From the IMG/VR virus record IMGVR_UViG_3300045988_060233: 39,231 bases of DNA; one strand, given 5' to 3'. The notes beneath the pieces were generated by a model that saw nothing but the letters and a program-made list of their open reading frames with translations, ran no database searches and was not told where the DNA came from. The position numbers and the translations under genes are program-made. Positions 8,819 to 39,231 of the stretch are shown one piece after another (the first letter of the stretch is position 1; every line of letters begins with the position of its first letter). Source of the DNA: a virus.

Positions 8819-8819
8819 T

Positions 8820-8966
8820 ATGTTCCAAGATATGCCCTATTTTATGGAAAATGAAGAATGGTTCAGGTTTGACGCATCTGTCAAAAAGTATGTACTGACA
8901 AGTGACGCACCACCCAAAGCAAAGGAATCCTATGAGTCGTTTTACAAAGCACTTGAAGAGGATTAA
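8820..8966 (+). CDS. Small conserved-looking phage protein (48 aa, not in ORF track)
   Basis: ATG 2 nt after the MuF stop. MFQDMPYFMENEEWFRFD...LTSDAPPKAKESYESFY. Confidence 0.45.
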   Translation: MFQDMPYFMENEEWFRFDASVKKYVLTSDAPPKAKESYESFYKALEED

Positions 8967-8972
8967 CGTGCA

Positions 8973-9374: not shown

Positions 9375-9408
9375 CGCTTTCCGGCTCTTTTTATTGGGAG
9401 TAAAGCAC

Positions 9409-9792: not shown

Positions 9793-9806
9793 AAACAAGT
9801 TCATTT

Positions 9807-9844
9807 AGCAACTACCGAGACTTTCTCGTCGGTTGCTATTTTTA
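9807..9844 (+). terminator. Intrinsic terminator after the lipoprotein gene
   Basis: AGCAAC...GTTGCT stem with inner CGAGA/TCTCG, then ATTTTTA. Second hairpin AAAACAGC/GCTGTTTT at 9851-9874. Confidence 0.5.
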
Positions 9845-9930
9845 TACGCAAAAACAGCGAAGCACTGCTGTTTTGAATAAATAATCTCAAATGACGAAGA
9901 ACCGTCACAGAAGAAAAGGAGAGAATCCAC

Positions 9931-10569
9931 ATGGCAAAATTTACACGCGCTGAAATCCGTAAAATCATTGGCGAAAGCTGCACTGACGAAATTGAAAATC
10001 AGCTGGTGGCGCTCCATCTTGGCGTTGTTGACCCGCTGAAGGACGACGTCACGCGGTATAAAGCCGATGCAGAAAAGCTGCCGGGCGTTCAGAAGGAGTT
10101 GGACGACCTGAAAGCGCAGGGCGACGGCGGCTACAAGGCTAAGTATGAAGCAGAGCACAAGGCTTTTGGGGACTACAAGGCCAACGTAGACGCTGAGAAA
10201 ACAACGGCTGCCAAAGAAAAGGCGCTGTCAGACGTCCTGCTGAAAATCGGCATTTCTGAAAAACGGATTTCCTCTGTCGCACGCCTTGCAAAGGGAGACG
10301 GCCTGCTTGACAAACTGGAATTGGATGACAAGGGCGCTATCAAAGACGCAGCTGCACTTGAAAAGAGCCTCAAGACCGATTATGGCGAGTACATCACCAA
10401 GAGCAGCACCAAAGGCGCAGACACGTCTACTCCCCCTGCCAACAATGGCGGCAAGGCCCTGACGCGGGAGGACATCTACAAGACGGACGATAAGGGTCGT
10501 TATGTACTGTCCACCTCCGAGCGGCAGGCGGCGCTTGTGAACCTCATGCAAAACGAATCTGACGATTAA
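9931..10569 (+). CDS. Scaffolding protein (GP20-like)
   Basis: Charged coiled-coil protein directly upstream of the capsid gene. ...LLDKLELDDKGAIKD...LK pattern. Confidence 0.7.
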   Translation: MAKFTRAEIRKIIGESCTDEIENQLVALHLGVVDPLKDDVTRYKADAEKLPGVQKELDDLKAQGDGGYKAKYEAEHKAFGDYKANVDAEKTTAAKEKALSDVLLKIGISEKRISSVARLAKGDGLLDKLELDDKGAIKDAAALEKSLKTDYGEYITKSSTKGADTSTPPANNGGKALTREDIYKTDDKGRYVLSTSERQAALVNLMQNESDD

Positions 10570-20035: not shown

Positions 20036-22327
20036 ATGGTACATACTTTGAGACTTGACAACTACTCCCCCACCCCGCGAAAGCTGGTGCTGGGGACTAA
20101 TTCCAGCTTTGGCACGGAGAGTATCAAGATTGAGCGCGGGGCCGGGTGGGACGGGCTCAATCTCACCGCAACGTGGCACATCCCCGGGCGGGAAGAGCCG
20201 CTGCGCGTGGCCTTGCTGGATGGGGATGCCATGGACGTGCCGCCCGAGGTGACGAAGGAGGCCAAGGATGGCGTGCTTGTGCTGGCCGGGCTGGCCTCCG
20301 GCGTGCAGCGGGCGAGTTGTAACGTGGAGTATCTTATCCTTGAGCAAGCGGGCGTATACGGCGGCGCGGATGCAGAGCCGACGCCCGAGCTGGCGGCGCA
20401 GGTGCTGCAGGCGGTGCAGGATGCCCGGGACGCGGCAAAGGACGCCGATCAGCGCGCCACGAACGCGGAGAACGTCGCCAACAGCGTGAGGGAGGACGCC
20501 GACAACGGGAAGTTTATCGGCCCAGTCGGCCCGCAGGGGCCTGTTGGGCCGCAAGGCGCGCAGGGTATCCAGGGCGAGAAGGGCGACACCGGAGAGCGCG
20601 GCCCCCAAGGTGAGCAGGGCGTTCAGGGTGTACAAGGCGAGAAGGGCGATACCGGCGCGCAGGGGCCTGTTGGCGAAACTGGCCCGGTTGGCCCCAAGGG
20701 TGATACTGGCCCGCAGGGTGAGCGCGGTGAGCAGGGGCCGCAGGGAGAGGTTGGCCCGGAGGGGCCTGCCGGAAAGGACGGCGTACAGATTGATGATGCG
20801 GCGGTGAGCGAGGACGCGCCGTGGAGCAGCAAGCACATCATTAATATGCTCTGCCCACCGCTGGAAGAAAGTGGAAATCCTGTTGTGTGTTACCCTGTGG
20901 CGGGTTATCCGCTTGGCGTGAAAGCGAAGTGGGAGCCCATGCAGGAGGGCACGGGAACGCCATATCCGGCAGGTGGCGGGCCTAACAAGCTGAATGTGGC
21001 CGGAATTGTGAGCAATAGAACGATCTCCGGCATCACCTTTACCGTAAATGCGGACGGCACGATTGGTGTGAATGGAACTTCTACCGCAATCTGCTTTTTG
21101 AATTCGAATACCAAATTTAATAAAGCCTATCTGCAAAAAATCCCAGCAGGGACTTACCGTCTTGACTTTGCACAGACTGCACTTGGCATCTTTTTGTTTG
21201 GCTACTACGAGGACAGCAGCGAGACCCCGATTGTGTATGCGGGGAACGTAGTGACCTATGCGCAGGACGCCTACGTTGGGCCGCAGATTCGCGTTGCTGC
21301 TGGCGCTACTGTGAATACCACAGTGCGGCTGATGCTGCACACTGGCACAAGTACGCCGAGCGCTTACGCTGGGTGGGAAAACATCCGTCCCATCAATGGC
21401 AGAGACAGTGTGACGGTTGAACGGTGCGGGGAGAATCTGCTGAATATAAAACCCTTTAACAAATTCACAAAGAAAGGCATTACGTATGAGTATGTTCCGA
21501 ATACCGGTATTCATGTATCCGGCACAGCAACGACTACTGTGGATGGCCCAACGTTTCCGGTTTGGCATCTGCCGCCTGGAAAATACTACGGGCTGGATAC
21601 AGGTGAAGGAATTTACGCTAGTATTGTGGTGCAGAGAAATGGGAAGACCTTGTGGCTAAATGCCAAAGGCGCTTTTGAGATTTTGGCTGGGGATGTAACT
21701 AAGTATTGGTACACGATTGTGAGTGCCGGCGCAACGGTTGACAAGACAGTGTATCCGTACATCGTCCCTGGCACCACCGCCCCCACGACCTACACGCCGT
21801 ACATCGGGCAGACCAACACCCTGACCCTGCCCGAAACCGTATATGGCGGTGAGGTGGACGCGGTGACGGGAGATGGAAGCAATAACACAAAGATTATCAC
21901 GCTGGACGGCAACGAACTGAAATTCAGACTATACAACAACATCTATTATAACCTTCCGAATCATTCTGCACCAGGGATTTCAACACGTGGAATTATTTGT
22001 GTCAGTCACTTTAACAGCAAGTTTTTTGGCGTGAATACAGATTACGATTTTTGTTTTTTGTCAAAGTCTGATATTGATAATCTGTTTGCCAACGCTGACG
22101 ACCTGAATGCCTACCTTGCCGCCCAGAACGACGCTGGCACGCCCGTGCAAATTGCTTATAAGCTGGCAACGCCCACTCCATTCACTGCGACAGGCGCACA
22201 GCCCATCCCCGCGCTTGCGGGAGCTAACACAATTCTGACCGATGCCGACAGCGCGACTGTGACGGGACGCGCTGACCCCATAAAGAGAATCACTGATTTG
22301 GAAGCAGCGGTTGCTTCTATCAACTGA
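20036..22327 (+). CDS. Tail fibre with collagen-like triple-helix segment
   Basis: TAAGGAGGT SD. 763 aa. G-X-Y run. Confidence 0.75.
20519..20782 (+). repeat. Collagen-like G-X-Y repeats (about 29 triplets)
   Basis: [30 protein letters not shown]...GPAGKDG. Confidence 0.9.
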
Positions 22328-22340
22328 AAGGAGTAATAAA

Positions 22341-22607
22341 ATGGCTATCAAGAGTAAAGCACGGCACGATTTAACATTGCGCAGCATCAAGCGGGAAATT
22401 GCAGCAGGACGCGACGTTGCGTTTTGGCTTGACAAAGCGTACACGCACTACGACAACGGCCTGCTGGATGAGGCAGACATTGCCGAGGTGGAGACGCTGG
22501 CGCAGGCGTATTATGATGCGGTGGATGCGAGAGAGCGCGCAGACGAGGTTGCGGAGACGCCGGACGTGCCGGAGATTGACGGCGCTGAAAATACCACCAA
22601 CGAATGA
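22341..22607 (+). CDS. Hypothetical protein (88 aa) between fibre and lysin
   Basis: AAAGGAG SD. ATG 22341. Confidence 0.55.
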   Translation: MAIKSKARHDLTLRSIKREIAAGRDVAFWLDKAYTHYDNGLLDEADIAEVETLAQAYYDAVDARERADEVAETPDVPEIDGAENTTNE

Positions 22608-22621
22608 TAGGAAGTGATACC

Positions 22622-23860
22622 ATGATTTTTGGCGGGAGAAATCTCGTGAAGTACCCGTACAGCCGCTACGGCTACACGCGCGGCGGCGGCAAGATTTGGC
22701 ACGGCGGCATTGATGTTTGCGGGTTGGATGACGACAAAATCCGCATGCCCGGCTACAACGGCAAGAGCATTGCAGGAACCGTTGTTACAGCCCGCATCGT
22801 GACGAACAAGAGCAACAAGACATGGGAATGGGGCTATTATATCTGCGTGAAGCTGGACGCAAACCAGACCCCGGATGCAGTGAATTACCTGTATTTTTGT
22901 CACTGCTCCAAGTTGCTTGCAAGCGTAGGGCAGAAAGTAAAGACCGGCGATGTGCTGGCGGTTGTCGGACAGACTGGCAACGCCGCAGGCACATGGACGC
23001 ACTGCCACTTTGAAGTGCGAGCCACTGCCACGAGCAAGGGTCTTGACCCGACTGCGTATGCAGGCATACCCAACAAGGCGGGCACATACGGTGACCAGCC
23101 TGCACAGCCCAGCGGCGAGGAAGTTCTGATTGATGTGTCTCACCATCAGGGTGCCATCGACTGGGCAAAGGTTCCCTACCGTGCCATTGTTCGCATCGGG
23201 TATCGCGGCTACGGCAGCGGAAAGCTGATGAAGGACGAGCAGTACGATGCCAACCTTGCAGGGGCGAAAGCAAGCGGAAAGCTGTTAGGCTTTTACTTCT
23301 TCTCGCAGGCCATCACGGTGGAAGAAGCCCGCGAGGAAGCTGATTTCTGCGCCAGCCTGGCCCCGACAGGCTATCCCTTGTTCTTCGACAACGAATGGGG
23401 ACACACAACCAAGACCGGCGTACACGATGGCCGCGCCGACAACCTGACGAAAGACCAGCGCACGGCAATTGCAATGGCGTTCTGTGAGAGGGCCAAAGCG
23501 CACGGATTTACAGCGGGCATTTACACCTTCACGGCCTTCGCAACCGCGAACATCGACTACGCCTACCTGTGCGAGGATTACATCGGCTGGCTGGCCGACA
23601 CCCGCGCCAACTACGACACAAGCCTGCCGCGATACATCCACCAGTACAGCCAGACCGCAAAGGGCGGCGTGCCGGGCATCACTGGCGTGGTTGATTTGAA
23701 CCATTTGGTCAAGGCCCTGCCTGCGGTGGACAAGCCAGAAAGAAAGCTACAAGTGATTACCATCGGGCCGGTGAGCCAGGGAGATGCGGATGCAATTTAC
23801 CTGCTGTGCCAGAGCCGCGGCCTGACGGATGCAGGACTGTATAAAAGCGAATGGGCCTGA
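22622..23860 (+). CDS. Endolysin: M23 peptidase + GH25 muramidase domains
   Basis: HGGIDV...HCHFEV (M23 type). LIDVSHHQGAIDW...GFYFF (GH25 type). ATG 22622 has GGAAGTGA upstream. Confidence 0.8.
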   Translation: MIFGGRNLVKYPYSRYGYTRGGGKIWHGGIDVCGLDDDKIRMPGYNGKSIAGTVVTARIVTNKSNKTWEWGYYICVKLDANQTPDAVNYLYFCHCSKLLASVGQKVKTGDVLAVVGQTGNAAGTWTHCHFEVRATATSKGLDPTAYAGIPNKAGTYGDQPAQPSGEEVLIDVSHHQGAIDWAKVPYRAIVRIGYRGYGSGKLMKDEQYDANLAGAKASGKLLGFYFFSQAITVEEAREEADFCASLAPTGYPLFFDNEWGHTTKTGVHDGRADNLTKDQRTAIAMAFCERAKAHGFTAGIYTFTAFATANIDYAYLCEDYIGWLADTRANYDTSLPRYIHQYSQTAKGGVPGITGVVDLNHLVKALPAVDKPERKLQVITIGPVSQGDADAIYLLCQSRGLTDAGLYKSEWA

Positions 23861-23881: not shown

Positions 23882-24133
23882 ATGACAGATTGGGATATCG
23901 TCAAGGACATTGTTGTACTTGCTGGACTGATTATGACGGTCACGACGCCGCTGTTGAAGTTGAATACCAGTATCACGCAGCTGAAAGCGCTGCTTGACAG
24001 CGTGGCCAAGCAAGTGCAGGAAAACGACAAGAGCAACAGTGCGAGCCATAAACGGTTGTGGGAGCACAACGAAGAGCAAGATGAAACGCTGCAACGGCAT
24101 GAGCAGCGTTTGCACGATTTGGACGGAAAGTGA
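23882..24133 (+). CDS. Holin-like / lysis accessory protein (N-terminal TM + coiled coil)
   Basis: IVKDIVVLAGLIMTVTTPLL followed by a charged helix. Position. Confidence 0.45.
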   Translation: MTDWDIVKDIVVLAGLIMTVTTPLLKLNTSITQLKALLDSVAKQVQENDKSNSASHKRLWEHNEEQDETLQRHEQRLHDLDGK

Positions 24134-24144
24134 GGTACAGCTCT

Positions 24145-24339
24145 ATGGGTGATTTTATCAAGAACATTGCAGCGCTTTTCAAGGTAAAAACCATTGTGAC
24201 GCTGGTTGTCGTTGCAGTGTTTGCGGCATTGGCGCTGCGGGAGAAATTACAGCCTGACACGGTCATGACCATTGTGACAATGGTTGTGGCCTTTTATTTT
24301 GGCACACAGACCGAAAGCAAGAACAAGAAGGATGAGTAA
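24145..24339 (+). CDS. Holin (two TM segments, charged C-terminus)
   Basis: KTIVTLVVVAVFAALAL...VMTIVTMVVAFYFG...KNKKDE. Confidence 0.65.
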   Translation: MGDFIKNIAALFKVKTIVTLVVVAVFAALALREKLQPDTVMTIVTMVVAFYFGTQTESKNKKDE

Positions 24340-24341
24340 TC

Positions 24342-24506
24342 ATGCCAAAGTTTGATTTTGTCGGCGGTTTGCTGACCGATGAAGAAACGGATGTTTTGCA
24401 GCTTCGGCGGCGCGGCTGGCGCAATGCTGATATTGCGGCAGAACTGAATTGCAGCGAGCGCACGGTAAAACGGCGCGTTCGCAGCATCAAAAACAAAATA
24501 GGCTAA
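24342..24506 (+). CDS. Small LuxR/GerE-type HTH protein (54 aa, not in ORF track)
   Basis: LTDEETDVLQLRRRGWRNADIAAELNCSERTVKRRVRSIKNK. Confidence 0.55.
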   Translation: MPKFDFVGGLLTDEETDVLQLRRRGWRNADIAAELNCSERTVKRRVRSIKNKIG

Positions 24507-24510
24507 TTTA

Positions 24511-24548
24511 AAGGGCGCGGCTGCTTTTGTGGCCGCGCCCTTTTTTAT
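24511..24548 (+). terminator. Strong intrinsic terminator after the lysis cassette
   Basis: GGGCGCGGC/GCCGCGCCC stem followed by TTTTTTATTTT. Confidence 0.85.
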
Positions 24549-24557
24549 TTTGTCCCA

Positions 24558-24608
24558 AAGACGGCACAATGTTGGCACTTTACTGGCCTACGTTGTGCCG
24601 TCTTTTTG
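24558..24608 (+). terminator. Second hairpin (12-bp stem, 23-nt loop) with T-rich tail; terminator or leader element
   Basis: AAGACGGCACAA/TTGTGCCGTCTT followed by TTTGTG. Confidence 0.4.
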
Positions 24609-24638
24609 TGTACAATTAAGATAAAAGGAGCGGTTCGA

Positions 24639-25016
24639 ATGGCATACAAGCAAATCAACCTAAACCCGGAAGAAAAGCGCGTCGGCGATTGTACCGTCAG
24701 AGCCATTGCAGCCGCAACGCATCAATCATGGGCGGCTGTATATGCGGCGCTGGTGCTGGCAGGATTTGAACTGCATGATATGCCGTCTGCAAACTATGTT
24801 TGGGGCAGCTATCTGCGGCGATGTGGGTGGAGTCGTTCGGCAATTCCGAACAACTGCCCGGATTGCTACACGGTAGCGCAGTTTGCGCGTGAACATCCAC
24901 ACGGTACATACATTTTGGCAATGGCTACGCATGTTGTATGCTTGCAGGATGGGGATTGGCTTGATACATGGGACAGCGGCGATGAAGTGCCGCTGTATTA
25001 CTGGCAGAAAGGATGA
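24639..25016 (+). CDS. Putative papain-fold (C39-like) cysteine peptidase, 125 aa
   Basis: AAGGAG 8 nt upstream. GDC(18)TVRA ... TH(98)VV ... DTWD(112) in Cys-His-Asp order and spacing. Confidence 0.4.
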   Translation: MAYKQINLNPEEKRVGDCTVRAIAAATHQSWAAVYAALVLAGFELHDMPSANYVWGSYLRRCGWSRSAIPNNCPDCYTVAQFAREHPHGTYILAMATHVVCLQDGDWLDTWDSGDEVPLYYWQKG

Positions 25017-25022
25017 TTGACT

Positions 25023-25493
25023 ATGGCGTTTGGAGTACCGTATCAGCCCGGCTATATGCCGAACTATTATCCAATGGGGCAGCAGATGCCGTCGGCCATG
25101 CCCGATCAGCTTACACAGCTCCGGCAAGCGGCATATCCGCAGCAGCAACCGGCACAGCAAAGCTCGCCTATTATCTGGGTGCAAGGCGAAGAGGGAGCCA
25201 AAGCGTATATGGTGGCGGCAGGGAACAGCGTGCTGCTGATGGACAGCGAAAATAGTACATTTTACATTAAGTCCACCGATGCCAGCGGCATGCCGCAGCC
25301 ATTGCGCGTTTTTGACTACTCGGAACGCACGGCAAGCCAGAAGCAGGCCGCACAGACAGCGCAAAAATCGAAAGAGGAATATGTCACACGGCAAGAGTTC
25401 AACGCGTTGACAGCCCGCTTTGACGCGCTGGCGGCAGATAAACCTTTAACGCGCAAGAAAAAGGAGGCAGACAATGAGCAACCCTCTGTTTAA
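25023..25493 (+). CDS. Hypothetical protein: P/Q/Y/M-rich N-terminus + small beta-rich domain + charged tail
   Basis: AAAGGA 9 nt upstream. PIIWVQGEEGAKAYMV...FYIKSTDASG. Confidence 0.6.
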   Translation: MAFGVPYQPGYMPNYYPMGQQMPSAMPDQLTQLRQAAYPQQQPAQQSSPIIWVQGEEGAKAYMVAAGNSVLLMDSENSTFYIKSTDASGMPQPLRVFDYSERTASQKQAAQTAQKSKEEYVTRQEFNALTARFDALAADKPLTRKKKEADNEQPSV

Positions 25494-25692
25494 CGCTCTT
25501 GGCGGCGGCAAAATGCCGGGCGCAATGGGACAATTCCAGCAAATGATGCAGCAGTTTCAGCAGTTCCGACATGATTTTCAAGGCGACCCGAAGCAAGAAG
25601 TTCAAAAATTGCTGCAATCTGGGAAAATGAGCCAGCAGCAGCTAAACCAGCTGCAAGCAATGGCGCAGCAGTTTCAGAGCTTTTTAAAATAG
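25474..25692 (+). CDS. Gln-rich small helical protein (72 aa)
   Basis: AAGGAGG SD. MSNPLFNALGGG then QQF repeats. Confidence 0.6.
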   Translation: MSNPLFNALGGGKMPGAMGQFQQMMQQFQQFRHDFQGDPKQEVQKLLQSGKMSQQQLNQLQAMAQQFQSFLK

Positions 25693-25746
25693 GTTCAAAC
25701 CGTGCGCACGGTGAACAATACATTCAACTTTTGAAAGGAGTTAAAC

Positions 25747-26523
25747 ATGAGTCTTTCTTCGGACGGCACTGTTATGACAATGCCTGTTCAGCCCGCGAAT
25801 ACGGGCAATGGCAACGGCTGGGGCTTTGGCGGCGATGGTGCGTGGTGGATTATTATTCTTTTCCTCTTCGTTTTCTGCGGCTGGGGCGGCAACTGGGGCA
25901 ACAACGGCTTTGGCGGCGGTAATGGTGCTGGCGCTGTCGATGGCTACATCCTCACCAGCGACTTTGCCAACATCGAACGCAAAATCGACGTCGTGAACAA
26001 CGGTCTGTGTGACGGCTTCTATGCTCAGGCACAGCTTGTCAACGGTGTGCAGAACGCTATGCAGCAGGGCTTTATGAGCGCCGAAATCAGCCGCGCCAAT
26101 CAGCAGGCGGCATTTATGCAGCAGCTCAACGCCATGCAGATGCAGCAGGCTAATTGCTGCTGCGAGACCCGCGAGGCCATCCAGGGCGTAAACTACAACC
26201 TCGCTACGCAGGCTTGCGACACGCGCCAGACTATCCAGAACGGCACGCGGGATATCATCGAGAATCAGAACGCCAATGCGCGTGCGGTGCTTGATGCTTT
26301 GACCGCTCAGCGCATCGAGGCAAAGGATGCCAAGATTGCCGAGCAGAACCAGCAGCTTTTTGCCGCACAGCTTGCCGCAAGTCAGGCTGCGCAAAATGAA
26401 ACGCTGAAAGCCTATATGAGCGGACAGCTTGCTTACTACAACCCCCGCCCTGTTCCGGCTTTCCCCGTTCCTGCTCCGTATCAGTATGGAAATTGCGGCG
26501 CCTGCAACGGCTGCGGATGCTAA
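25747..26523 (+). CDS. Gly/Trp/Asn-rich single-pass membrane protein with Q/N-rich coiled coil, CCC motif and C-terminal CxxCxxCxC
   Basis: AAAGGAG SD. AWWIIILFLFVFCGW TM segment. NCCCETR. Ends GNCGACNGCGC. Confidence 0.65.
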   Translation: MSLSSDGTVMTMPVQPANTGNGNGWGFGGDGAWWIIILFLFVFCGWGGNWGNNGFGGGNGAGAVDGYILTSDFANIERKIDVVNNGLCDGFYAQAQLVNGVQNAMQQGFMSAEISRANQQAAFMQQLNAMQMQQANCCCETREAIQGVNYNLATQACDTRQTIQNGTRDIIENQNANARAVLDALTAQRIEAKDAKIAEQNQQLFAAQLAASQAAQNETLKAYMSGQLAYYNPRPVPAFPVPAPYQYGNCGACNGCGC

Positions 26524-26572
26524 AAATGAATACGGCAACTTGTCGGAACATCTGACATGTTCGGCCCCGTGC

Positions 26573-26621
26573 CGATAGTGCAAAAAGGGGCGGGGCAATC
26601 GTCCCGCCACTATCTTTTTTT
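26573..26621 (+). terminator. Intrinsic terminator inside the cargo region
   Basis: GATAGTG...GGCGGG/CCCGCC...CACTATC composite stem followed by T7. Confidence 0.6.
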
Positions 26622-26636
26622 GAAAGGAATGATTTT

Positions 26637-27059
26637 ATGGCTGAATTTACAAATGCCAATACCGTGAGCGTGGCAGCAGGCCAGAACGTGCCGCTGACGG
26701 AAACGGCAGTAGCGGGCAAGGGCTGTGTCGTACACAGAGAGGGCGCCGGTATTGTTACGCTGCGCGGCATTACGAACCAGTGCAAAGCTCGTTTCAAAGT
26801 GGGCTTCGGTGCAAACGTTGCTATCCCTACAGGCGGCACAGTGGAAGCTATTACGGCGGCACTTGCCATCAACGGTGAACCGCTGAACAGTACGACTGCA
26901 ACCGTGACACCGGCAGCAGTAGAAAACTTCTTTAATATCTATGTGACGTCTTTTGTTGAAGTTCCGCGCGGCTGCTGCCTGACCGTTGCCGCCGAAAATA
27001 CAAGCACACAAACCGTTTTGTTTGCAAACGCAAACTTTGTGGTCGAGAGAGTGAGCTGA
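26637..27059 (+). CDS. Putative C1q/TNF-like (BclA C-terminal-domain-like) beta-jelly-roll protein
   Basis: Alternating beta pattern ...GIVTLRG...ARFKVGFGANV...ITAALAINGEPL...NANFVVERVS. No collagen stalk. Confidence 0.4.
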   Translation: MAEFTNANTVSVAAGQNVPLTETAVAGKGCVVHREGAGIVTLRGITNQCKARFKVGFGANVAIPTGGTVEAITAALAINGEPLNSTTATVTPAAVENFFNIYVTSFVEVPRGCCLTVAAENTSTQTVLFANANFVVERVS

Positions 27060-27071
27060 AAGGAGTAAACC

Positions 27072-27449
27072 ATGAGTAAAAGAGTTTTGTATGACTTGAA
27101 AGACATGCTGTGCGCAGAACTGGACGAAATTGGAAAGAAGGGTGAAATGTCTGCCGGTGACTTAGAAACTGTTCACAAGCTGACTGACACTATCAAAAAC
27201 ATCGACAAAATTGTCATGCTGGAAGATGATGGTTACAGCCGCGATGGTGATTGGAGCGCGAATATGCGCGGCAATTATGGACGCGGCAGCAGCTATGCGC
27301 GGCGCGGTTCCCATTATGTGCGTGGCCATTACAGCATGGACGATGGGCGCGATTCACTGATTTCCCGCATGGAAGATATTCTGCGCGGGGCTGACAGCAA
27401 AGACAGGGAAGTCATCCAGCGCTGCATTGACACGATGCGAAACGGTTAA
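27072..27449 (+). CDS. Hypothetical protein (helical ends, central R/G/S/Y-rich segment)
   Basis: AAAGGAG SD. 125 aa. Confidence 0.6.
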   Translation: MSKRVLYDLKDMLCAELDEIGKKGEMSAGDLETVHKLTDTIKNIDKIVMLEDDGYSRDGDWSANMRGNYGRGSSYARRGSHYVRGHYSMDDGRDSLISRMEDILRGADSKDREVIQRCIDTMRNG

Positions 27450-27466
27450 AGTGAGGTGTAAGGGCT

Positions 27467-27820
27467 ATGGTTGACGTGCGAGAGATTGACGGCGCTATAG
27501 CCGAAATCGAAAACAGCGAACTCACCATGACCAGAGTTAAAAATTTGGCAGCGCTGTATGTTGTGAAAAATCAGCGTCTTGCAGATGCGTCCCATTCTCC
27601 GCAGAAAGCAAAACTGCAAGAGCCTGTGCGCTACTACGAAGCGGCAGAGCCGTCTACAAGGGCTGCTGTTGGCAGCAGTGACTTTTTACGGGCTGTGTCA
27701 AACGTAGACATCGCAGCAGCGCTGAACGTGCTGGATGAGCTTATGTCGGCCTTGTATGTAGCAAACCCTAAAGTTTATAATGGCGTAATGCGGAAATTGG
27801 AGCGTTTACAGGATGAGTGA
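27467..27820 (+). CDS. Hypothetical protein (117 aa)
   Basis: GTGAGGTG SD. C-terminal VLDELMSAL...P..Y motif. Confidence 0.55.
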   Translation: MVDVREIDGAIAEIENSELTMTRVKNLAALYVVKNQRLADASHSPQKAKLQEPVRYYEAAEPSTRAAVGSSDFLRAVSNVDIAAALNVLDELMSALYVANPKVYNGVMRKLERLQDE

Positions 27821-27950
27821 ATTTTTGGAGATTGTAAAAAAGACCGATACCGGGCGAGTGTTGCGTGTGCTGGATGAGTTTATGGATGCGCTGAAAGAAG
27901 CGCAACCGGAAGCGTACAAAGATTTGGTACACAACTTGATTAGGAAATAA
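27813..27950 (+). CDS. Small protein (45 aa, not in ORF track) paralogous to the C-terminus of the preceding protein
   Basis: Overlaps the upstream stop. VLDEFMDAL...P..Y motif shared with 27467..27820. Confidence 0.45.
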   Translation: MSEFLEIVKKTDTGRVLRVLDEFMDALKEAQPEAYKDLVHNLIRK

Positions 27951-27954
27951 GCGA

Positions 27955-27976
27955 AGTGTGTACTAAAGTGTGTACT
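27955..27976 (+). repeat. Two tandem AGTGTGTACT repeats (candidate integrase arm-type sites, P arm)
   Basis: 27955-27964 and 27967-27976. Related copies at 28149-28158 and 28162-28171. Confidence 0.6.
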
Positions 27977-27988
27977 TCATAAACAAAA

Positions 27989-28022
27989 TAGCGTAGATTC
28001 TAACGAATCTACGCTATTTATT
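27989..28022 (+). terminator. Strong intrinsic terminator ending the cargo operon
   Basis: 12-bp stem TAGCGTAGATTC/GAATCTACGCTA, TAAC loop, then TTTATTAT. Confidence 0.8.
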
Positions 28023-28023
28023 A

Positions 28024-28049
28024 TGGAGCGGCTGATGGGAGTCGAACCC
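28024..28049 (-). other. attP core: 3' fragment of a tRNA gene (T-loop, 3' T-stem, acceptor 3' strand, CCA)
   Basis: Minus strand reads GGGTTCGACTCCCATCAGCCGCTCCA. No matching 5' acceptor, D or anticodon arms nearby. Confidence 0.65.
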
Positions 28050-28148
28050 TGCCGCATTGCAAACCGTTGGTATTTTCTGCCTTTTATACTTTATATAATG
28101 CTACTTGGCATACTGCATTTCGGTTTTTGCTACCGTCTGAAAACAAAA

Positions 28149-28171
28149 AGCGTGTACTTTTAGTGTGTACT
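28149..28171 (+). repeat. AGCGTGTACT + AGTGTGTACT repeats (candidate arm-type sites, P' arm)
   Basis: Same orientation as the 27955-27976 copies. The second copy overlaps the int stop. Confidence 0.6.
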
Positions 28172-29236
28172 ATCTAAGGCGCTTCTGAAAGCTGCATCTA
28201 GCGCAGATGCAATCTTTTCTGCCTGCCCGTTTACGGAGTGGCCGTACACGCCGAATGTGTCCATGTTGCGGCTGTGGCCGACAAGAGCCTTGACTTGCCC
28301 CTCTGGAAGCACATTGGCGATTGACACAAATGTGTGCCGCAGTTCGTACAGGGAGACATACTGTATATTATTGTGAGCACAATACTTGCGCCACCATTTA
28401 TAAAGCAGATGCTCGTCGGTTACGCCAAACACGCTTTTTTCTTTATTGGTGGCTTCACGCTGTGCTTCCAGCACGCTCTTTGCCATGTCGGACAGTTCAA
28501 TAGCGCGAATCGCATTGTCGTTCTTCCCAGTCGTGTGTTCTCCGTAAACATTGATTGCGCGTTTCAGATAGATGCAGCCATTTTTCACATCTTTCCATTG
28601 CAGGCCCAGAAGCTCCCCGGGACGCAGGCCCGTAAGCACTGCAAAGCGATATGCGTTTACATAGGGGTCTACTATTTCCTTGCCTCTGAACATGGTCTTG
28701 TCGCTTGTCATGAGTATTGCCAAATCCTCCGGCTGCAATATTTTCTTTCTGGGCTTCGGCGTCCCCTCTGGTATGTGCAGCGCGTCTGGCGTGAATGTTG
28801 TGTACCCGGAATTTCTGGCGAAGCGGAAAAAAGAAGTTATATCTCCGTAAAGGTTCTGTAGCGTCTTGCGGCTCTTGCCTGCTGCTTTGGCGTTGTCCAA
28901 CACAGCCTGCACTTGCTGCTGTGTGAGCGATTCAAGCCGTCTGTGGCCTATTTCCGGCTGAATCCAGATGCGCCATCGGCTTTCTTTTGGTCTGTAGTTG
29001 CTCTGCCCTGATATTTTAGAGGCCCTTTCCAAATACTCTGCATACGCGCTCTCCACAGTCTTCCCGCGCGTCTGCAAGCCTTTTTCCAGCCAGTCATCCG
29101 CTTTTTTGTTTGCTTCTCGCTGGCCAGTGCGGCCCGGCTTCGCACTGGTAAATGTCTTGCGCACTCCGTTCTTCTGCACATTGATTTGCCAACGCCCGGC
29201 GCTTTCAATCCACTTTGCTGTATTTGTCCTTTTCAT
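28160..29236 (-). CDS. int: Tyrosine integrase
   Basis: 358 aa. ...LRHTFVS...LVGHS...Y catalytic-region pattern. AAGGAG SD. Adjacent to attP. Confidence 0.85.
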   Translation of the reverse strand: MKRTNTAKWIESAGRWQINVQKNGVRKTFTSAKPGRTGQREANKKADDWLEKGLQTRGKTVESAYAEYLERASKISGQSNYRPKESRWRIWIQPEIGHRRLESLTQQQVQAVLDNAKAAGKSRKTLQNLYGDITSFFRFARNSGYTTFTPDALHIPEGTPKPRKKILQPEDLAILMTSDKTMFRGKEIVDPYVNAYRFAVLTGLRPGELLGLQWKDVKNGCIYLKRAINVYGEHTTGKNDNAIRAIELSDMAKSVLEAQREATNKEKSVFGVTDEHLLYKWWRKYCAHNNIQYVSLYELRHTFVSIANVLPEGQVKALVGHSRNMDTFGVYGHSVNGQAEKIASALDAAFRSALDSTH

Positions 29237-30362: not shown

Positions 30363-31070
30363 TTACGAATCGCTTACACAGTCATAAATAACGGCTCCGT
30401 TAAGAACACTAAGTAATGTGTTGTCCAAATTTGCATCATTAAGAACATTGGTCATAATAACGGCATCGTCTAACCCATTTTGTTTTGCCTGTTCTACAAG
30501 CTGTTTGTTTAATTCAACAAAGGTGTCAACAACGTTGGATTCCCATTCTTGCTTTGCGTTTTCATCACCAGAGGACGCAAGCGCTGCCCCCATTGCAAGG
30601 TTGTCACCCCACACAGAAAGGGTTATTCCGCTATCATCATATTCAACTTTGTATTTATCCTCTGCGTAAGACTGAGAAGCAGCATACTCAACAATTGCGG
30701 CAAAAAACTTCATGTCGCTGTTATCGGTGCTATCGCTGCTTTCCTGTAATGGTTCTTCGGTAGGCTCTGGCGTTGCGGTGATTTCCGGCGTAGGCTCCGG
30801 GGTAGCGGTTGCTTCTGGCGTTGCTGTGGGCGCAGGCTCTTCAGTTTTTTGGCTTGTTGTATTGGGTGCGGCCATTACAGCGGCTACAAAGAAAACTACA
30901 GGGATAATAATGTTTAATGGCTTTTTTAAGTGCTGCTGAATTGCTTCGACAGGCGCAACGGTGATTGCCGCGCCAAGAAGTAAAACAACGGAAATTGGGC
31001 TGCCGCATACAGGAACAAACAAAATGCACAAAACAGCAATTACCCATCGTACGATTTGCTTTTTAGACAT
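30363..31070 (-). CDS. Membrane protein with Pro/Thr/Glu-rich linker and extracytoplasmic domain (candidate superinfection exclusion)
   Basis: AAGGTGG SD before ATG 31070. TM segments. TEEPAPTATPEATATPEPTPEITATPEPTEEP linker. Confidence 0.65.
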   Translation of the reverse strand: MSKKQIVRWVIAVLCILFVPVCGSPISVVLLLGAAITVAPVEAIQQHLKKPLNIIIPVVFFVAAVMAAPNTTSQKTEEPAPTATPEATATPEPTPEITATPEPTEEPLQESSDSTDNSDMKFFAAIVEYAASQSYAEDKYKVEYDDSGITLSVWGDNLAMGAALASSGDENAKQEWESNVVDTFVELNKQLVEQAKQNGLDDAVIMTNVLNDANLDNTLLSVLNGAVIYDCVSDS

Positions 31071-31148
31071 AATAGAACCACCTTTACATTTTTTGGGAGG
31101 AATCAGCAATGACGGACACAGAAAAGCTTATTGAAATTGTTTCAACCT

Positions 31149-39074: not shown

Positions 39075-39231
39075 TAATTTTCAAAATTACAAGTGCTATG
39101 GAATCCCACACGCACAGCTTGTAATCGCCGATATTCCCTATAACATTGGCGCTAACGCTTACGCCAGCAATCCCGTCTGGTACAACGGCGGAGACAATAA
39201 AAACGGAGAAAGCAAACTCGCCAAAAAAAAC
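39049..39231 (+). CDS. DNA methyltransferase, 5' part (continues at base 100 after the duplicated 99 nt)
   Basis: GGAGGA 8 nt upstream of ATG 39049. MPICELYHDNF...VIADIPYNIG. Same frame as 1..693. Confidence 0.75.
   Translation, partial: MPICELYHDNFQNYKCYGIPHAQLVIADIPYNIGANAYASNPVWYNGGDNKNGESKLAKKN
39133..39231. repeat. Terminal direct repeat (circular-closure overlap), identical to 1-99
   Basis: Base-by-base comparison of both ends. Confidence 0.95.

What the first reader, a model, noticed from the sequence alone, without database searches (positions are those of the whole stretch)
24558..27950. Eight-gene post-lysis cargo operon of unknown function, insulated by strong terminators
Seen: a tightly coupled plus-strand operon, with strong SDs throughout, lies between the lysis terminators and the terminator at 27989-28022. 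An internal terminator sits at 26573-26621. The operon encodes:
1. a 125-aa Cys-His-Asp peptidase-like protein
2. a P/Q/Y/M-rich protein with a small beta domain (IIWVQGEEGAKAYMV...FYIKS)
3. a 72-aa QQF-repeat protein
4. a Gly/Trp/Asn-rich single-pass membrane protein with Q/N coiled coil and Cys clusters
5. a C1q/TNF-like beta protein
6. a helical protein with an R/G/S/Y-rich centre
7. and 8. two proteins sharing a VLDE[LF]M.AL....P..Y motif (about 27700-27820 and 27870-27950)
None resembles a virion, lysis, replication or known defence protein that I recognise.
Known: the position between lysis genes and attP is the classic lysogenic-conversion slot.
Inference, two competing hypotheses: (a) a surface-layer or spore-coat/exosporium-like assembly module, given the Q-rich, Cys-rich and BclA-CTD-like components; (b) a peptidase plus Gly-Gly-containing substrates, forming a bacteriocin-like or membrane-active system. 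Either would be an undescribed phage-borne system.
Basis: partly seen in the sequence, partly recalled or inferred. Interest (0 to 1): 0.7.

Follow-up and report, generated by a model that had tools for sequence, protein, structure and literature searches.

The report
Conserved unknown-function cassette in gut phages
This is a real, strongly conserved set of seven or eight phage genes, found in thousands of gut and rumen Clostridia phages, that matches no described system; its one clearly recognisable part resembles the proteins that anchor the hairy coat of Bacillus spores, and what it does for the phage is still unknown.

Summary
Eight tightly packed plus-strand genes (24639-27950) sit between two strong hairpins after the lysis genes and a hairpin next to attP.

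It is not random cargo. Gene order g1-g6 is almost invariant across about 130 related loci. g5 implies g4 in 41/41 loci, g2 in 38/40 and g6 in 35/38. Each protein has thousands of homologues. None hits Pfam, NCBIfam or PADLOC.

A small GerE/LuxR-type regulator (24342-24506) followed by a terminator travels with the cassette.

The cassette occurs in three genomic settings:
- after the lysis genes;
- between the MuF-like head protein and the scaffold gene;
- after an integrase.

It is present in Butyrivibrio phage Ceridwen, seen only as lytic. It is absent from Flavonifractor phage Chenonceau, whose capsid protein is 66% identical. So it is an old, dispensable accessory cassette, not simply lysogenic-conversion cargo.

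AlphaFold2 plus Foldseek confirm that g5 has a BclA-CTD/ExsF-like TNF fold. g1 has papain-like topology with invariant Cys/His/Asp, but no close solved relative and no C39 signal.

Best guess (about 0.3): a membrane-anchored, Cys-rich coiled-coil protein (g4) carries an ExsF-like trimer (g5), matured by g1. The bacteriocin hypothesis is not supported.

The parts
24342..24506 (+). 54-aa stand-alone GerE/LuxR-type (sigma-70 region-4-like) HTH protein, the last gene of the lysis operon. It is the candidate dedicated regulator of the cassette.
   Evidence: Pfam GerE scores 40.4 bits against a cut-off of 23.5; Sigma70_r4_2 and Sigma70_r4 are also above cut-off. An HTH of this family lies upstream of, or inside, the cassette in 84 of 133 loci and in all three genomic settings.
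24510..24543 (+). Intrinsic terminator closing the lysis operon and HTH gene.
   Evidence: 15-bp stem followed by TTTTTATTTT. Folding energy -29.6 kcal/mol, z -7.3. An equivalent hairpin follows the HTH gene in Ceridwen (L082 8284-8311) and Dulem virus 35 (L084 5213-5244).
24557..24610 (+). Second long hairpin plus T-run directly upstream of the cassette. Either a second terminator or a regulatory inverted repeat.
   Evidence: -31.7 kcal/mol, z -7.5. The layout 'hairpin + T-run, then a -10-like hexamer, then SD' recurs in divergent loci with different sequences. No Rfam family reaches its threshold.
24611..24616 (+). -10-like hexamer TACAAT with no recognisable -35. Candidate activator-dependent promoter of the cassette (inferred).
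   Evidence: TACAAT, TAGAAT, TAAAAT or TATAAT sits at the same place in divergent loci. This hexamer-plus-SD arrangement is unique in the window. Function not tested.
24639..25016 (+). g1: 125-aa papain-like cysteine peptidase candidate (Asp17-Cys18, His98, Asp109).
   Evidence: Triad invariant in 114 sequences of 44-91% identity. AF2 pLDDT 93.8, with Cys18 at the N-terminus of a helix and His98/Asp109 on adjacent strands. Best PDB fold match is only Josephin-2: E 0.2, TM 0.46. phrog_3754, unknown function. At least 7982 homologues.
25023..25493 (+). g2: 156 aa. P/Q/Y/M-rich N-terminus, a small beta domain of about 55 aa, then a C-terminal amphipathic helix and a Lys-rich tail.
   Evidence: phrog_21718, unknown function. 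No Pfam or PDB match. Alignment A8. Found with g5 in 38/40 loci.
25474..25692 (+). g3: 72 aa, 26% Gln, Met/Phe-rich small helical protein.
   Evidence: phrog_22984, unknown function. Composition. Found with g5 in 35/41 loci.
25747..26523 (+). g4: 258 aa and the signature protein of the cassette. In order: N-terminal MPVxPA motif, Gly/Trp/Asn-rich flanks around one hydrophobic helix (about 31-47), a helical Q/N-rich region with invariant CCC, a conserved Pro-rich motif (PxPA[FY]), and a Gly/Cys-rich tail.
   Evidence: Hydropathy 2.0 over 17 residues; it is the only TM-like segment in the cassette. Invariant columns. Cys motifs kept in 102/110 unique pairs. 1497 clusters at 50% identity, all about 220-300 aa, with no fusions. 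phrog_16490, unknown function.
26589..26621 (+). Internal terminator-like hairpin plus T-run between g4 and g5.
   Evidence: z -3.7. Not conserved everywhere: in Ceridwen the g4-g5 gap is 12 nt.
26637..27059 (+). g5: 140-aa stand-alone TNF/C1q-fold protein, closest to the BclA C-terminal domain and the exosporium anchor ExsF/BxpB. It has four conserved Cys, including PRGCC.
   Evidence: AF2 pLDDT 93.1, pTM 0.86. Foldseek PDB hits: F-BclA CTD 9h38 (E 4.5e-7), ExsF 9h3d, ExsFA 7r1m and BxpB 8d02 (TM 0.76-0.79), BclA 1wck. The viral library gives many stand-alone 130-145-aa gut-phage proteins. About 7000 homologues.
27072..27449 (+). g6: 125 aa. Two helical ends around a variable Tyr/Arg/Gly/Ser-rich centre with a conserved SYARRGxHYVRGHYS motif.
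   Evidence: Alignment A9. phrog_28802, unknown function. Found with g5 in 35/38 loci.
27467..27820 (+). g7: 117-aa helical protein. A peripheral member of the cassette.
   Evidence: Homologues in Ceridwen and Dulem virus 33. g7 or g8 is present in 15/35 g5-seeded loci.
27813..27950 (+). g8: 45 aa, a duplicate of the C-terminal domain of g7.
   Evidence: 42% identity over 43 residues, E 2e-9.
27986..28019 (.). 15-bp hairpin between the cassette and attP. Probably a two-way terminator for the cassette (+) and the integrase (-).
   Evidence: -27.3 kcal/mol, z -10.7. Ceridwen has a terminator at the equivalent place after g7.
28023..28065 (-). attP core (context, not part of the cassette): the 3' part of a tRNA-Cys(GCA) gene. 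GTGTGTACT arm-type repeats lie at 27956, 27968 and 28163.
   Evidence: Sequence reading and motif search. The integrase is at 28160-29236 (-). ARAGORN finds no complete tRNA.

Best explanation
The region is a self-contained, ancient accessory cassette of a lineage of siphoviruses infecting gut and rumen Clostridia (Oscillospiraceae, Lachnospiraceae). It consists of a GerE/LuxR-type regulator gene, a terminator, and then a separately transcribed block g1-g6, with g7 and g8 optional.

Shown:
- The cassette is a real, insulated unit.
- It moves and is inherited as a block.
- It is dispensable for making virions.
- It is not restricted to temperate phages or to the attP-proximal slot.

Inferred mechanism:
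- The products assemble inside the phage-carrying cell, without signal peptides, much as exosporium proteins assemble in a mother cell.
- g4 is a membrane-anchored, Cys-rich, largely helical protein. Through one of its conserved proline-rich motifs it docks the g5 trimer. g5 has the fold of ExsF/BxpB and the BclA head, proteins that bind proline-rich leader peptides or form fibre knobs.
- g1, a papain-like Cys/His/Asp enzyme, processes or cross-links a component. A possible site is the conserved FGG|DG just before the g4 hydrophobic helix.
- The low-complexity proteins g2, g3 and g6, and the helical g7/g8, act as assembly partners or substrates.
- The assembly would act at the envelope of the infected or lysogenic cell, or be released at lysis, for adhesion, receptor masking or envelope remodelling. 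It would not be part of the core virion.
For: Unit and linkage:
- Gene order is practically invariant in about 130 loci.
- Co-occurrence: g5 with g4 41/41, g4 with g5 69/69, g5 with g2 38/40, g5 with g6 35/38, g5 with g1 32/37.
- Terminators bracket the block in the window and in Ceridwen. A hairpin follows the HTH gene in Dulem virus 35.
- A -10-like hexamer recurs after the hairpin in divergent loci.
- The GerE-type HTH is linked in all three settings.

Ancient and accessory:
- Head genes of the window phage, Ceridwen and Dulem virus 35 are homologous (MCP 35-53%, portal 41%). Cassette proteins differ by similar amounts, 30-56%.
- Chenonceau (MCP 66% identical) and Dorea phage DO134P1 lack the cassette.
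- It is present in a phage only seen lytic.

Components:
- g5 fold.
- The ExsF trimer binds proline-rich leader peptides in its inter-subunit clefts, and BclA residues 1-19 are cleaved off (PMC12357932).
- g4 has a single hydrophobic helix, invariant CCC, PxP and terminal Cys motifs, and a conserved N-terminal MPVxPA motif.
- g1 has an invariant triad and papain-like topology.
- No protein other than g4 has a hydrophobic segment or signal peptide.
- Variant cassettes that lack g1 carry a small HExxH protein instead, so a peptidase is a recurrent member. This signal is weak: phrog_87 and sub-threshold Pfam hits.
- Variant cassettes also replace g5 with another small Cys-rich beta protein at the same position.
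Against: - No interaction between any two products was tested; no multimer prediction was available.
- Only g5 has a significant structural relative. It fails the sequence profiles of BclA_C, and no partner carries the exosporium-leader profile.
- The g1 fold match is not significant (E 0.2), and g1 also occurs alone in unrelated phages. Its role may therefore be independent of the cassette.
- g4 topology is ambiguous: there are few charges on either side of the helix.
- Timing of expression is unknown.
- The promoter is only a -10-like hexamer.
- The two named hosts are not known to sporulate, so the spore analogy is purely architectural.
Confidence: 0.3

Rival explanations
1. Lysogenic-conversion moron. 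The cassette is transcribed from its own promoter in the prophage. It changes the lysogen's surface or physiology, for example superinfection exclusion, adhesion or stress tolerance.
For: - Terminator-flanked autonomous unit next to attP and the integrase in the window, in most close relatives, and in Acutalibacter prophages.
- In Dulem virus 39-like phages it follows the integrase on the same strand.
- Presence/absence polymorphism among related phages.
- Ceridwen carries an XRE regulator and an antirepressor, so it may be a recent ex-temperate phage.
Against: - Retained, with co-divergence similar to the head genes, in a phage without an integrase that was only seen lytic.
- Located inside the head-gene cluster in at least five phages.
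- Always co-oriented with the late genes.
- The linked HTH gene is the last gene of the late lysis operon.
- GC content is not deviant.
Confidence: 0.25
2. Optional virion appendage. g4 and g5, with helpers, form a head, neck or tail-associated fibre or decoration (coiled-coil stalk plus TNF-like knob) that broadens adsorption or mucus binding.
For: - TNF/C1q-like knobs are common phage fibre tips. Foldseek hits include the phi812 central spike knob, the cyanophage A-1(L) fibre domain and fibritin-like proteins.
- Five phages carry the cassette between the MuF-like head protein and the scaffold/capsid genes.
- Strong SD sites, late orientation, and presence in a lytic phage.
Against: - g4 has a true membrane-type hydrophobic helix.
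- The cassette has its own regulator and terminators, unlike structural genes.
- A phage with a 66%-identical capsid protein lacks it.
- The MuF-scaffold junction is itself an insertion hot-spot: in the window it holds a low-GC island.
- No PHROG structural annotation.
Confidence: 0.15
3. Counter-defence or host take-over set. g1 is a protease or deconjugating enzyme acting on a host protein, and the others neutralise host systems.
For: - g1 occurs alone in many unrelated phages: Bacillus Tsamsa-like phages, Geobacillus GBK2 and Lak megaphages.
- Its nearest fold, though not significant, is a deubiquitinase-type papain fold.
- Accessory distribution, in both lytic and temperate phages.
Against: - Late-gene orientation and position rather than early.
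- A six-gene invariant order with a membrane protein, a TNF-fold trimer and low-complexity proteins is unlike known anti-defence genes, which are usually single small genes.
- No family match.
Confidence: 0.12
4. Lysis or membrane-remodelling accessory. g4 acts as a membrane-active protein, primed by g1 cleavage in front of its Gly-rich hydrophobic peptide. This would resemble a spanin or a class I fusion protein, and would modulate the last step or the timing of lysis.
For: - Position directly after endolysin and holins in most phages.
- XhlA/'hemolysin'-like and small TM proteins sit just upstream of the HTH gene even in some non-lysis settings: Dulem virus 35, MT837318 and MT835477.
- g4 architecture: Gly-rich hydrophobic peptide, long helices and Cys motifs. 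The only PDB sequence echo is the fusion-peptide end of influenza C/D HEF2, at E about 3, which is not significant.
Against: - The hosts have no outer membrane (my own knowledge, not tested here), so no spanin-type step is needed.
- Several loci lack nearby TM genes.
- The HEF2 similarity is compositional.
- This gives no role for g5.
Confidence: 0.1
5. Bacteriocin-like system. A C39-type peptidase cleaves Gly-Gly leaders from g3 or g4 to release membrane-active peptides.
For: - g1 has a Cys/His/Asp triad.
- g4 keeps an FGGDG motif before its hydrophobic helix.
- g3 of the window has a GGG.
Against: - No Peptidase_C39 match by Pfam. No C39 structure among the 50 best fold matches listed.
- No ABC transporter or immunity gene in any of about 130 loci.
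- The g3 GGG is absent in Ceridwen.
- g4 is a 220-300-aa protein with conserved helical and Cys-rich domains, not a short peptide precursor.
Confidence: 0.03

Closest known systems
ExsF(A)/BxpB and the BclA C-terminal domain of the Bacillus cereus-group exosporium (PDB 9h3d, 7r1m, 8d02, 1wck, 9h38)
   Same: - g5 has the same TNF/C1q-type jelly-roll (TM 0.75-0.79, E about 1e-6 to 1e-7).
- Like ExsF/BxpB, it is a stand-alone protein of about 140 aa with no signal peptide, made in the cytoplasm.
- Its neighbours are Cys-rich and Tyr/Arg/Ser-rich proteins, under a GerE-type regulator. This recalls late mother-cell coat and exosporium genes.
- A peptidase is linked, and the BclA leader is cleaved on attachment.
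   Different: - Sequence identity is 10-16%, with no BclA_C Pfam match.
- No collagen-like partner in the cassette and no exosporium-leader (TIGR03720) match.
- Encoded by phages, including a lytic one, of hosts not known to sporulate.
- The partners g1-g4 and g6-g8 have no counterpart among known exosporium proteins.
Phage morons (autonomous promoter/terminator-flanked accessory units, as defined for lambdoid phages)
   Same: - Insulated by terminators, with a candidate promoter of its own.
- Sits in accessory slots (lysis-attP; MuF-scaffold junction).
- Present or absent among phages with related backbones.
   Different: - Much larger (six to eight genes plus a regulator) and far older than typical morons.
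- Gene order is conserved down to about 30% identity.
- No compositional deviation.
- Kept in a phage only seen lytic.
- Always co-oriented with the late genes.
Trimeric fibre architectures with a coiled-coil stalk and a TNF-like head (Chlamydia Pgp3; phage fibre knobs such as the phi812 central spike and the cyanophage A-1(L) fibre)
   Same: A helical or coiled-coil element (g4) next to a TNF-fold trimer (g5). These proteins are among the Foldseek matches for g5.
   Different: - Here stalk and head are separate polypeptides. No fusions occur among 1497 g4 clusters.
- The stalk candidate has a membrane anchor and Cys clusters.
- No evidence of virion association.
Papain-like cysteine peptidases (Josephin-type deubiquitinases; C39 bacteriocin-processing domains)
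   Same: g1 has an invariant Cys at the start of a helix, plus His and Asp on adjacent strands. Josephin-2 is the best fold match.
   Different: - The match is not significant (E 0.2, TM 0.46).
- No Pfam peptidase family matches, and no C39 relative was found.
- At 125 aa it is smaller than characterised members.

Membership tests
TNF/C1q superfamily, BclA_C-type (g5) | Ten-strand jelly-roll of the TNF/C1q type | tested here: met
   AF2 model with pLDDT 93.1. Foldseek gives 105 PDB matches at E<=1e-3, led by F-BclA CTD, ExsF, ExsFA, BxpB and BclA, then TNF ligands.
TNF/C1q superfamily, BclA_C-type (g5) | Match to the sequence profile of the family (Pfam BclA_C / C1q) | tested here: not met
   No such Pfam hit even at E<=1. 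A profile of 8 diverse g5 sequences finds no PDB relative by sequence.
TNF/C1q superfamily, BclA_C-type (g5) | Head domain carried on a collagen-like or other stalk in the same polypeptide | tested here: not met
   g5 homologues are stand-alone, 135-197 aa.
TNF/C1q superfamily, BclA_C-type (g5) | Homotrimer | not testable with these tools
   Only monomer prediction was available.
Exosporium anchoring system (ExsF/BxpB plus leader-bearing fibre) | Stand-alone ExsF-like TNF-fold adaptor | tested here: met
   TM 0.76-0.79 to 9h3d, 7r1m and 8d02.
Exosporium anchoring system (ExsF/BxpB plus leader-bearing fibre) | Partner protein with the exosporium leader peptide (NCBIfam TIGR03720) | tested here: not met
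   NCBIfam scan of all eight proteins gives no such hit. g4 has proline-rich motifs, but they are unrelated in sequence (PMC12357932).
Exosporium anchoring system (ExsF/BxpB plus leader-bearing fibre) | Expression in a sporulating mother cell | not testable with these tools
   Named hosts are Gemmiger formicilis and Butyrivibrio fibrisolvens. That they do not sporulate is my own knowledge.
C39 bacteriocin-processing peptidase system | Peptidase_C39 domain | tested here: not met
   No Pfam hit. No C39 structure among the 50 best fold matches listed.
C39 bacteriocin-processing peptidase system | Linked ABC transporter and short Gly-Gly-leader precursor | tested here: not met
   No transporter in any locus. 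The g3 GGG is not conserved. g4 is a 220-300-aa protein.
Papain-like (clan CA-type) cysteine peptidase (g1) | Conserved catalytic Cys, His and Asp/Asn | tested here: met
   Cys18, His98 and Asp109 are invariant in 114 sequences and across Bacillus, Geobacillus and Butyrivibrio phage homologues.
Papain-like (clan CA-type) cysteine peptidase (g1) | Cys at the N-terminus of a helix packed against a sheet carrying His and Asp | tested here: inconclusive
   DSSP of the model places Cys18 at the start of helix 18-27, His98 before strand 99-103, and Asp109 at the end of strand 106-109. Coordinates could not be inspected. The best fold match, Josephin-2, is not significant at E 0.2.
Moron (autonomous accessory transcription unit) | Flanked by its own promoter and terminator | tested here: inconclusive
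   Terminators are clear. The promoter is only a conserved -10-like hexamer without a -35.
Moron (autonomous accessory transcription unit) | Present or absent among otherwise related phages | tested here: met
   Chenonceau (MCP 66% identical) and Dorea phage DO134P1 lack it.
Moron (autonomous accessory transcription unit) | Expressed from the repressed prophage | not testable with these tools
   No expression data available.
Known anti-phage defence systems | Match to any PADLOC model | tested here: not met
   No hit for any of the eight proteins at E<=1.
Spanin / class I fusion-protein-like membrane fusogen (g4) | Significant similarity to a known fusogen, and a second membrane to fuse with | tested here: not met
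   The only echo is the influenza C/D HEF2 N-terminus at E 2.9, which is not significant. That the hosts are monoderm is my own knowledge.

The most novel reading that the evidence does not exclude
Tailed phages of gut Clostridia carry a portable, self-regulated kit that builds a spore-surface-like protein assembly in the infected cell. The kit would comprise:
- a protease-primed, membrane-active, Cys-cross-linkable stalk (g4);
- an ExsF/BclA-type trimer, or in variant cassettes another small Cys-rich beta protein, at the same position;
- glutamine-rich and Tyr/Arg/Gly-rich matrix proteins.

The assembly would be released at lysis to coat virions, cell debris or neighbouring cells. That would be a phage-made extracellular coat or adhesin layer that affects persistence or transmission in the gut. 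It would be a new class of phage function with no described counterpart.
Probability: 0.12. Interest if true: 0.85.

Novelty: categorically new. Interest (0 to 1): 0.62.

Why it matters
The cassette is one of the more abundant pieces of fully unannotated, yet clearly organised, genetic material in mammalian gut and rumen viromes.

- Each member has thousands of distinct homologues. g4 alone has about 1500 clusters at 50% identity.
- Gene order is conserved down to about 30% identity.
- Not one member is in Pfam, NCBIfam or PADLOC.

It offers a defined, testable unit: a regulator, a putative enzyme, a membrane anchor, a trimeric head of known fold, and low-complexity partners. An isolated phage-host pair, Ceridwen and Butyrivibrio fibrisolvens DSM 3071, carries it, so experiments are possible now.

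If it builds an envelope- or particle-associated assembly, it would show that exosporium-type building blocks (ExsF/BclA fold, Cys cross-linking, GerE-type control) are used outside sporulation. It would also add a new category of phage accessory function relevant to adhesion, host range or persistence in the gut.

If instead it proves to be an ordinary lysogenic-conversion or exclusion module, it would still annotate thousands of 'hypothetical' genes.

Tried and rejected
**No signal**
- Pfam, NCBIfam and PADLOC scans of all eight proteins, and Pfam scans of divergent homologues, gave nothing above threshold. PHROGs gave only 'unknown function' families.
- Sequence and profile searches of the PDB for g1, g2, g4 and g5 gave nothing significant. 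The HEF2 fusion-peptide echo for g4 (E 2.9) is compositional and was rejected as evidence.
- Rfam on 24200-28300 gave nothing above gathering score. The second hairpin is not a known riboswitch or leader.
- ARAGORN finds no intact tRNA.
- Literature searches for a phage-borne BclA/TNF-like system, and for the related isolated phages, gave no functional or proteomic data on these genes.

**Ideas tested and dropped**
- 'The cassette jumps between unrelated phage backbones.' Rejected: the window phage, Ceridwen and Dulem virus 35 share homologous head genes.
- 'Its position in the head cluster means a head function.' Weakened: the MuF-scaffold junction is an insertion site in the window itself (low-GC island), and Chenonceau lacks the cassette.
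- Cys motifs of g4 and g5 co-vary. Uninformative: they are almost invariant, 102/110.
- The second hairpin is a fixed -42 activator site. Not upheld: the distance to the -10 varies between loci.
- Holin-like TM genes always accompany the HTH gene. Only partly true; they are absent in L085, L087 and L135.
- g4-g5 fusion proteins as a Rosetta stone. None among the 150 best-scoring of the 1497 g4 cluster representatives that were listed.

**Technical failures**
- The search for related loci with the eight-sequence g5 alignment failed because the alignment was too divergent. It was repeated with five sequences.
- One PHROG call failed on a wrong reading frame.

Full report
**1. What is in the sequence**

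The window is a complete circular phage genome: a 99-nt terminal direct repeat joins its ends. It is a public 39,231-bp 'Caudoviricetes sp.' contig whose proteins also occur in Gemmiger formicilis assemblies.

Plus-strand late genes run from the terminase to a collagen-like tail fibre (20036-22327). They are followed by:
- an M23+GH25 endolysin (22604-23860);
- two small membrane proteins (23882-24133 and 24130-24339);
- a 54-aa GerE/LuxR-type HTH protein (24342-24506; Pfam GerE 40.4 bits against a cut-off of 23.5).

Then come two very stable hairpins with T-runs (24510-24543 and 24557-24605; z -7.3 and -7.5), and then the eight ORFs of the finding. After g8 there is a 15-bp hairpin (27986-28019, z -10.7). 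Next is an attP region made of the 3' part of tRNA-Cys(GCA) on the minus strand, flanked by GTGTGTACT repeats. The integrase follows at 28160-29236 (-).

The one addition is that the HTH gene just upstream belongs with the unit.

**2. Is it a unit?**

Yes. I took the window proteins as seeds and iterated profile HMMs over 133 loci. These were 80 IMG/VR contigs found with g4, 44 species-representative genome contigs found with g5, and GenBank phages.

The order g1-g2-g3-g4-g5-g6(-g7/g8) is practically the only one seen. In g5-seeded loci with enough flanking sequence:

| partner of g5 | loci with partner |
|---|---|
| g4 | 41/41 |
| g2 | 38/40 |
| g6 | 35/38 |
| g3 | 35/41 |
| g1 | 32/37 |
| g7 or g8 | 15/35 |

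In g4-seeded loci, g5 is present in 69/69.

The families are very large:
- g5: about 7000 clusters at 90% identity;
- g1: at least 7982;
- g4: 1497 clusters at 50% identity, 761 of them at E<=1e-10.

Carriers are almost all gut or rumen Oscillospiraceae, Lachnospiraceae and unclassified Clostridia. A few are assigned to other phyla, and I take those to be binning errors of about 40-kb phage contigs.

**3. Where it sits**

There are three settings.

- Type A: endolysin, holins, HTH, terminator, cassette, then attP/integrase. Examples are the window, Dulem virus 33, Acutalibacter prophages and bajarodcaudo virus 5. Butyrivibrio phage Ceridwen has the same arrangement but no integrase. There the cassette is again bracketed by terminators (L082 8284-8311 and 12445-12471) and is followed by early genes.
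- Type B: MuF-like minor head protein, cassette, scaffold, major capsid protein. Examples are Dulem virus 35, MT837318, MT835516, MT839484 and bajarodcaudo virus 2.
- Type C: GerE-type HTH, integrase on the same strand, cassette, then DUF4417. Examples are Dulem virus 39 and two metagenome contigs.

The cassette is always co-oriented with the late genes. An HTH of the same family accompanies it in all three settings; in Dulem virus 35 it lies between g1 and g2 and is followed by a hairpin. Homing-endonuclease-like genes have been inserted between g3 and g4 (Dulem virus 33) and between g5 and g6 (Ceridwen) without disturbing the order.

**4. Old but dispensable**

The head genes of the window phage, Ceridwen and Dulem virus 35 are homologous:
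- MCP 35-53% identical;
- portal 41%;
- MuF-like protein 38%;
- scaffold 43%;
- large terminase 46.5%.

The cassette proteins differ by similar amounts, 30-56%. The cassette has therefore been inherited with this lineage for a long time.

Ceridwen was isolated, has no integrase, and has only been observed to grow lytically (PMC7372960). On the other hand, Flavonifractor phage Chenonceau has a capsid protein 66% identical to the window's, closer than either of the above. It has the same backbone but no cassette in either slot. Dorea phage DO134P1 and the Streptococcus, Enterococcus and Lactobacillus phages with this capsid type also did not appear in the g1, g2, g4 or g5 searches.

So the cassette is not needed to build this kind of virion. 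The MuF-scaffold junction is also an insertion site in the window itself, where it holds a 40-45% GC island. Type B position alone therefore does not imply a head function.

**5. The proteins**

None of the eight, nor their divergent homologues, matches Pfam, NCBIfam or PADLOC. PHROGs has families for g1-g6, all of 'unknown function'.

*g5.* With a 118-sequence alignment, AlphaFold2 gives pLDDT 93.1 and pTM 0.86. Foldseek places the model with:
- the C-terminal domain of F-BclA (9h38, E 4.5e-7);
- the exosporium anchor ExsF/ExsFA/BxpB (9h3d, 7r1m, 8d02; TM 0.76-0.79);
- BclA (1wck);
- then TNF ligands, Chlamydia Pgp3 and phage fibre knobs.

The viral structure library contains many stand-alone 130-145-aa gut-phage proteins of the same fold. 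Four Cys are invariant among closer homologues.

*g1.* pLDDT is 93.8. Cys18 opens a helix, and His98 and Asp109 lie on neighbouring strands. All three are invariant, even in homologues from Bacillus and Geobacillus phages. The best PDB match, Josephin-2, is not significant (E 0.2, TM 0.46), and no C39 peptidase appears. g1 also occurs alone in Tsamsa-like Bacillus phages, Geobacillus phage GBK2 and Lak megaphages.

*g4.* This is the only protein with a membrane-type segment (residues about 31-47, hydropathy 2.0). It is flanked by Gly/Trp/Asn-rich stretches with almost no charges, so topology cannot be called. Conserved features are an N-terminal MPVxPA motif, FGGDG just before the helix, a helical Q/N-rich region with invariant CCC, a PxPA[FY] motif and a Gly/Cys tail. 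Lengths are uniformly 220-300 aa and there are no fusions.

*g2, g3 and g6.* These are dominated by low-complexity segments: P/Q/Y/M-rich in g2, 26% Gln in g3, and Tyr/Arg/Gly/Ser-rich with a conserved SYARRGxHYVRGHYS motif in g6. The segments are attached to short folded or helical parts.

*g8.* This is a copy of the g7 C-terminus.

*Variant cassettes.* In Dulem virus 36, MT835477 and bajarodcaudo viruses 5 and 2, the gene after g4 is a different small Cys-rich beta protein. In Dulem virus 39 and MT835477 there is no g1, but a small HExxH protein follows g6, with weak metallo-protease signals.

The recurring logic is therefore: regulator; peptidase; P/Q-rich protein; g4; a small Cys-bearing beta protein; a Tyr/Arg-rich protein.

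**6. How it most likely works**

*Shown.* It is an insulated, regulator-linked, block-inherited accessory cassette whose products, except g4, are soluble and lack signal peptides.

*Inferred.* They assemble in the cytoplasm or at the membrane of the phage-carrying cell. The one solid structural lead is g5. In Bacillus, the ExsF trimer binds proline-rich leader peptides of BclA or F-Anchor in the clefts between its subunits, and the first 19 residues of BclA are removed by an unidentified protease (PMC12357932).

By analogy:
- g4, which is invariably adjacent and has two conserved proline-rich motifs, would be the partner that docks g5;
- g1 would process or cross-link a component;
- the Gln-rich, Lys-tailed and Tyr-rich proteins would be matrix or adaptor components.

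I give this reading about 0.3. Whether the assembly acts in the lysogen, late in infection, or after release by lysis cannot be decided from sequence.

Late lytic expression is favoured by three points: the HTH gene is the last gene of a late operon, the cassette is co-oriented with the late genes, and Ceridwen keeps it. Prophage expression is favoured by the terminator-flanked layout next to attP/integrase and by the type C arrangement.

**7. Rivals**

- Lysogenic-conversion moron: 0.25.
- Optional virion fibre or decoration: 0.15.
- Counter-defence or take-over set: 0.12.
- Lysis or membrane-remodelling accessory: 0.10.
- Bacteriocin-like system: 0.03.

Evidence for and against each, and the decisive tests, are given in the Rival explanations section.

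**8. Comparison with the known, and novelty**

At fold level g5 belongs to the TNF/C1q superfamily and is closest to ExsF/BxpB/BclA-CTD. It fails the sequence-profile, stalk and leader-partner criteria. It therefore may work like an ExsF-type adaptor or fibre head, but it is not a member of the exosporium system.

g1 is papain-like by triad and topology, but it has no significant relative. The cassette behaves like a moron in layout and distribution. It is unlike one in size, age and presence in a lytic phage.

I found no described phage or cellular system with this composition, and no paper addressing these genes. I therefore rate it as an undescribed kind of phage accessory system. The caveat is that this rests on absence of matches and on one confident fold, not on a demonstrated function.

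Interest is moderate to high. The existence of unknown phage genes is not surprising. But the breadth, the strict organisation, the spore-surface-like parts and the availability of a culturable phage-host pair make it a well-posed problem.

Noticed in passing
window 1-99 and 39133-39231: The first 99 nt are repeated exactly at the end of the window. The window is therefore a complete circular (or terminally redundant) phage genome of about 39.1 kb.
   Followed up: yes
window 27956-28171: attP region. The 3' part of a tRNA-Cys(GCA) gene lies on the minus strand (about 28023-28065), between GTGTGTACT arm-type repeats at 27956, 27968 and 28163, with a further GTGTACT at 28152. The phage should integrate into tRNA-Cys. 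Rfam gives a weak tmRNA-3'-end echo at 28037-28049.
   Followed up: partly
window 8001-10000: A low-GC island (0.40-0.45, against about 0.51 elsewhere) lies between the MuF-like head protein (6926-8818) and the scaffold gene. It holds ORFs 8973-9374 (phrog_5 'Neck1'-like) and 9394-9792 (phrog_478, annotated as a recombination directionality factor). This is the same junction that holds the cassette in type B phages.
   Followed up: partly
window 20036-22327: A 763-aa tail fibre with a long collagen-like Gly-X-Y run, in the GC-richest kilobase of the genome (0.65). It carries its own non-TNF C-terminal domain, so g5 is not simply its detached head.
   Followed up: no
window 30363-31109 (-): A 247-aa protein with N-terminal membrane segments and a TPEP/ATPEPT-rich linker, encoded between repressor-like genes on the lysogeny strand. 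It looks like a prophage-expressed surface protein and is a better positional candidate for superinfection exclusion than the cassette.
   Followed up: no
L143 6597-6980; L144 6646-7086; L134 6734-7153; L135 6767-7171: In variant cassettes the gene after g4 is not TNF-like. It is another 127-146-aa beta-rich protein with an N-terminal Cys cluster (CxxxCxxC or GCGGC) and internal CC/C motifs. From memory this recalls the Cys-bearing N-terminal connector plus jelly-roll of endospore appendage (Ena) subunits. No Pfam, PHROG or PDB sequence match was found, so this is only a lead.
   Followed up: partly
L085 8214-8531; L144 7763-8149: Cassettes lacking g1 carry a small (105-128 aa) HExxH protein after g6. 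It gives weak metallo-protease signals: phrog_87, phrog_13742, and sub-threshold Pfam DUF6782 and M78. This suggests that a peptidase is a required role filled by non-homologous enzymes.
   Followed up: partly
L001 8876-9427 (-); L082 10860-11723: Endonuclease/HNH-like genes are inserted inside the cassette at different junctions: g3|g4 in Dulem virus 33 and g5|g6 in Ceridwen.
   Followed up: no
window 25747-25990 (g4 residues about 27-110): The only PDB sequence echo of the g4 profile is the N-terminus of influenza C/D HEF2, which is a fusion peptide followed by a coiled coil. g4's FGGDG aligns to the post-cleavage N-terminus. E is 2.9, not significant and probably compositional, but it is an intriguing architectural parallel.
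   Followed up: partly
L084 4236-4968; L144 4210-4587; L086 1351-1776: In some cassettes that lie away from the lysis genes, an XhlA/'hemolysin'-like coiled-coil protein with a C-terminal TM helix sits directly upstream of the HTH gene; in Dulem virus 35 a second small TM protein is there too. The cassette may bring its own holin-like export or release component. These are absent in L085, L087 and L135.
   Followed up: partly
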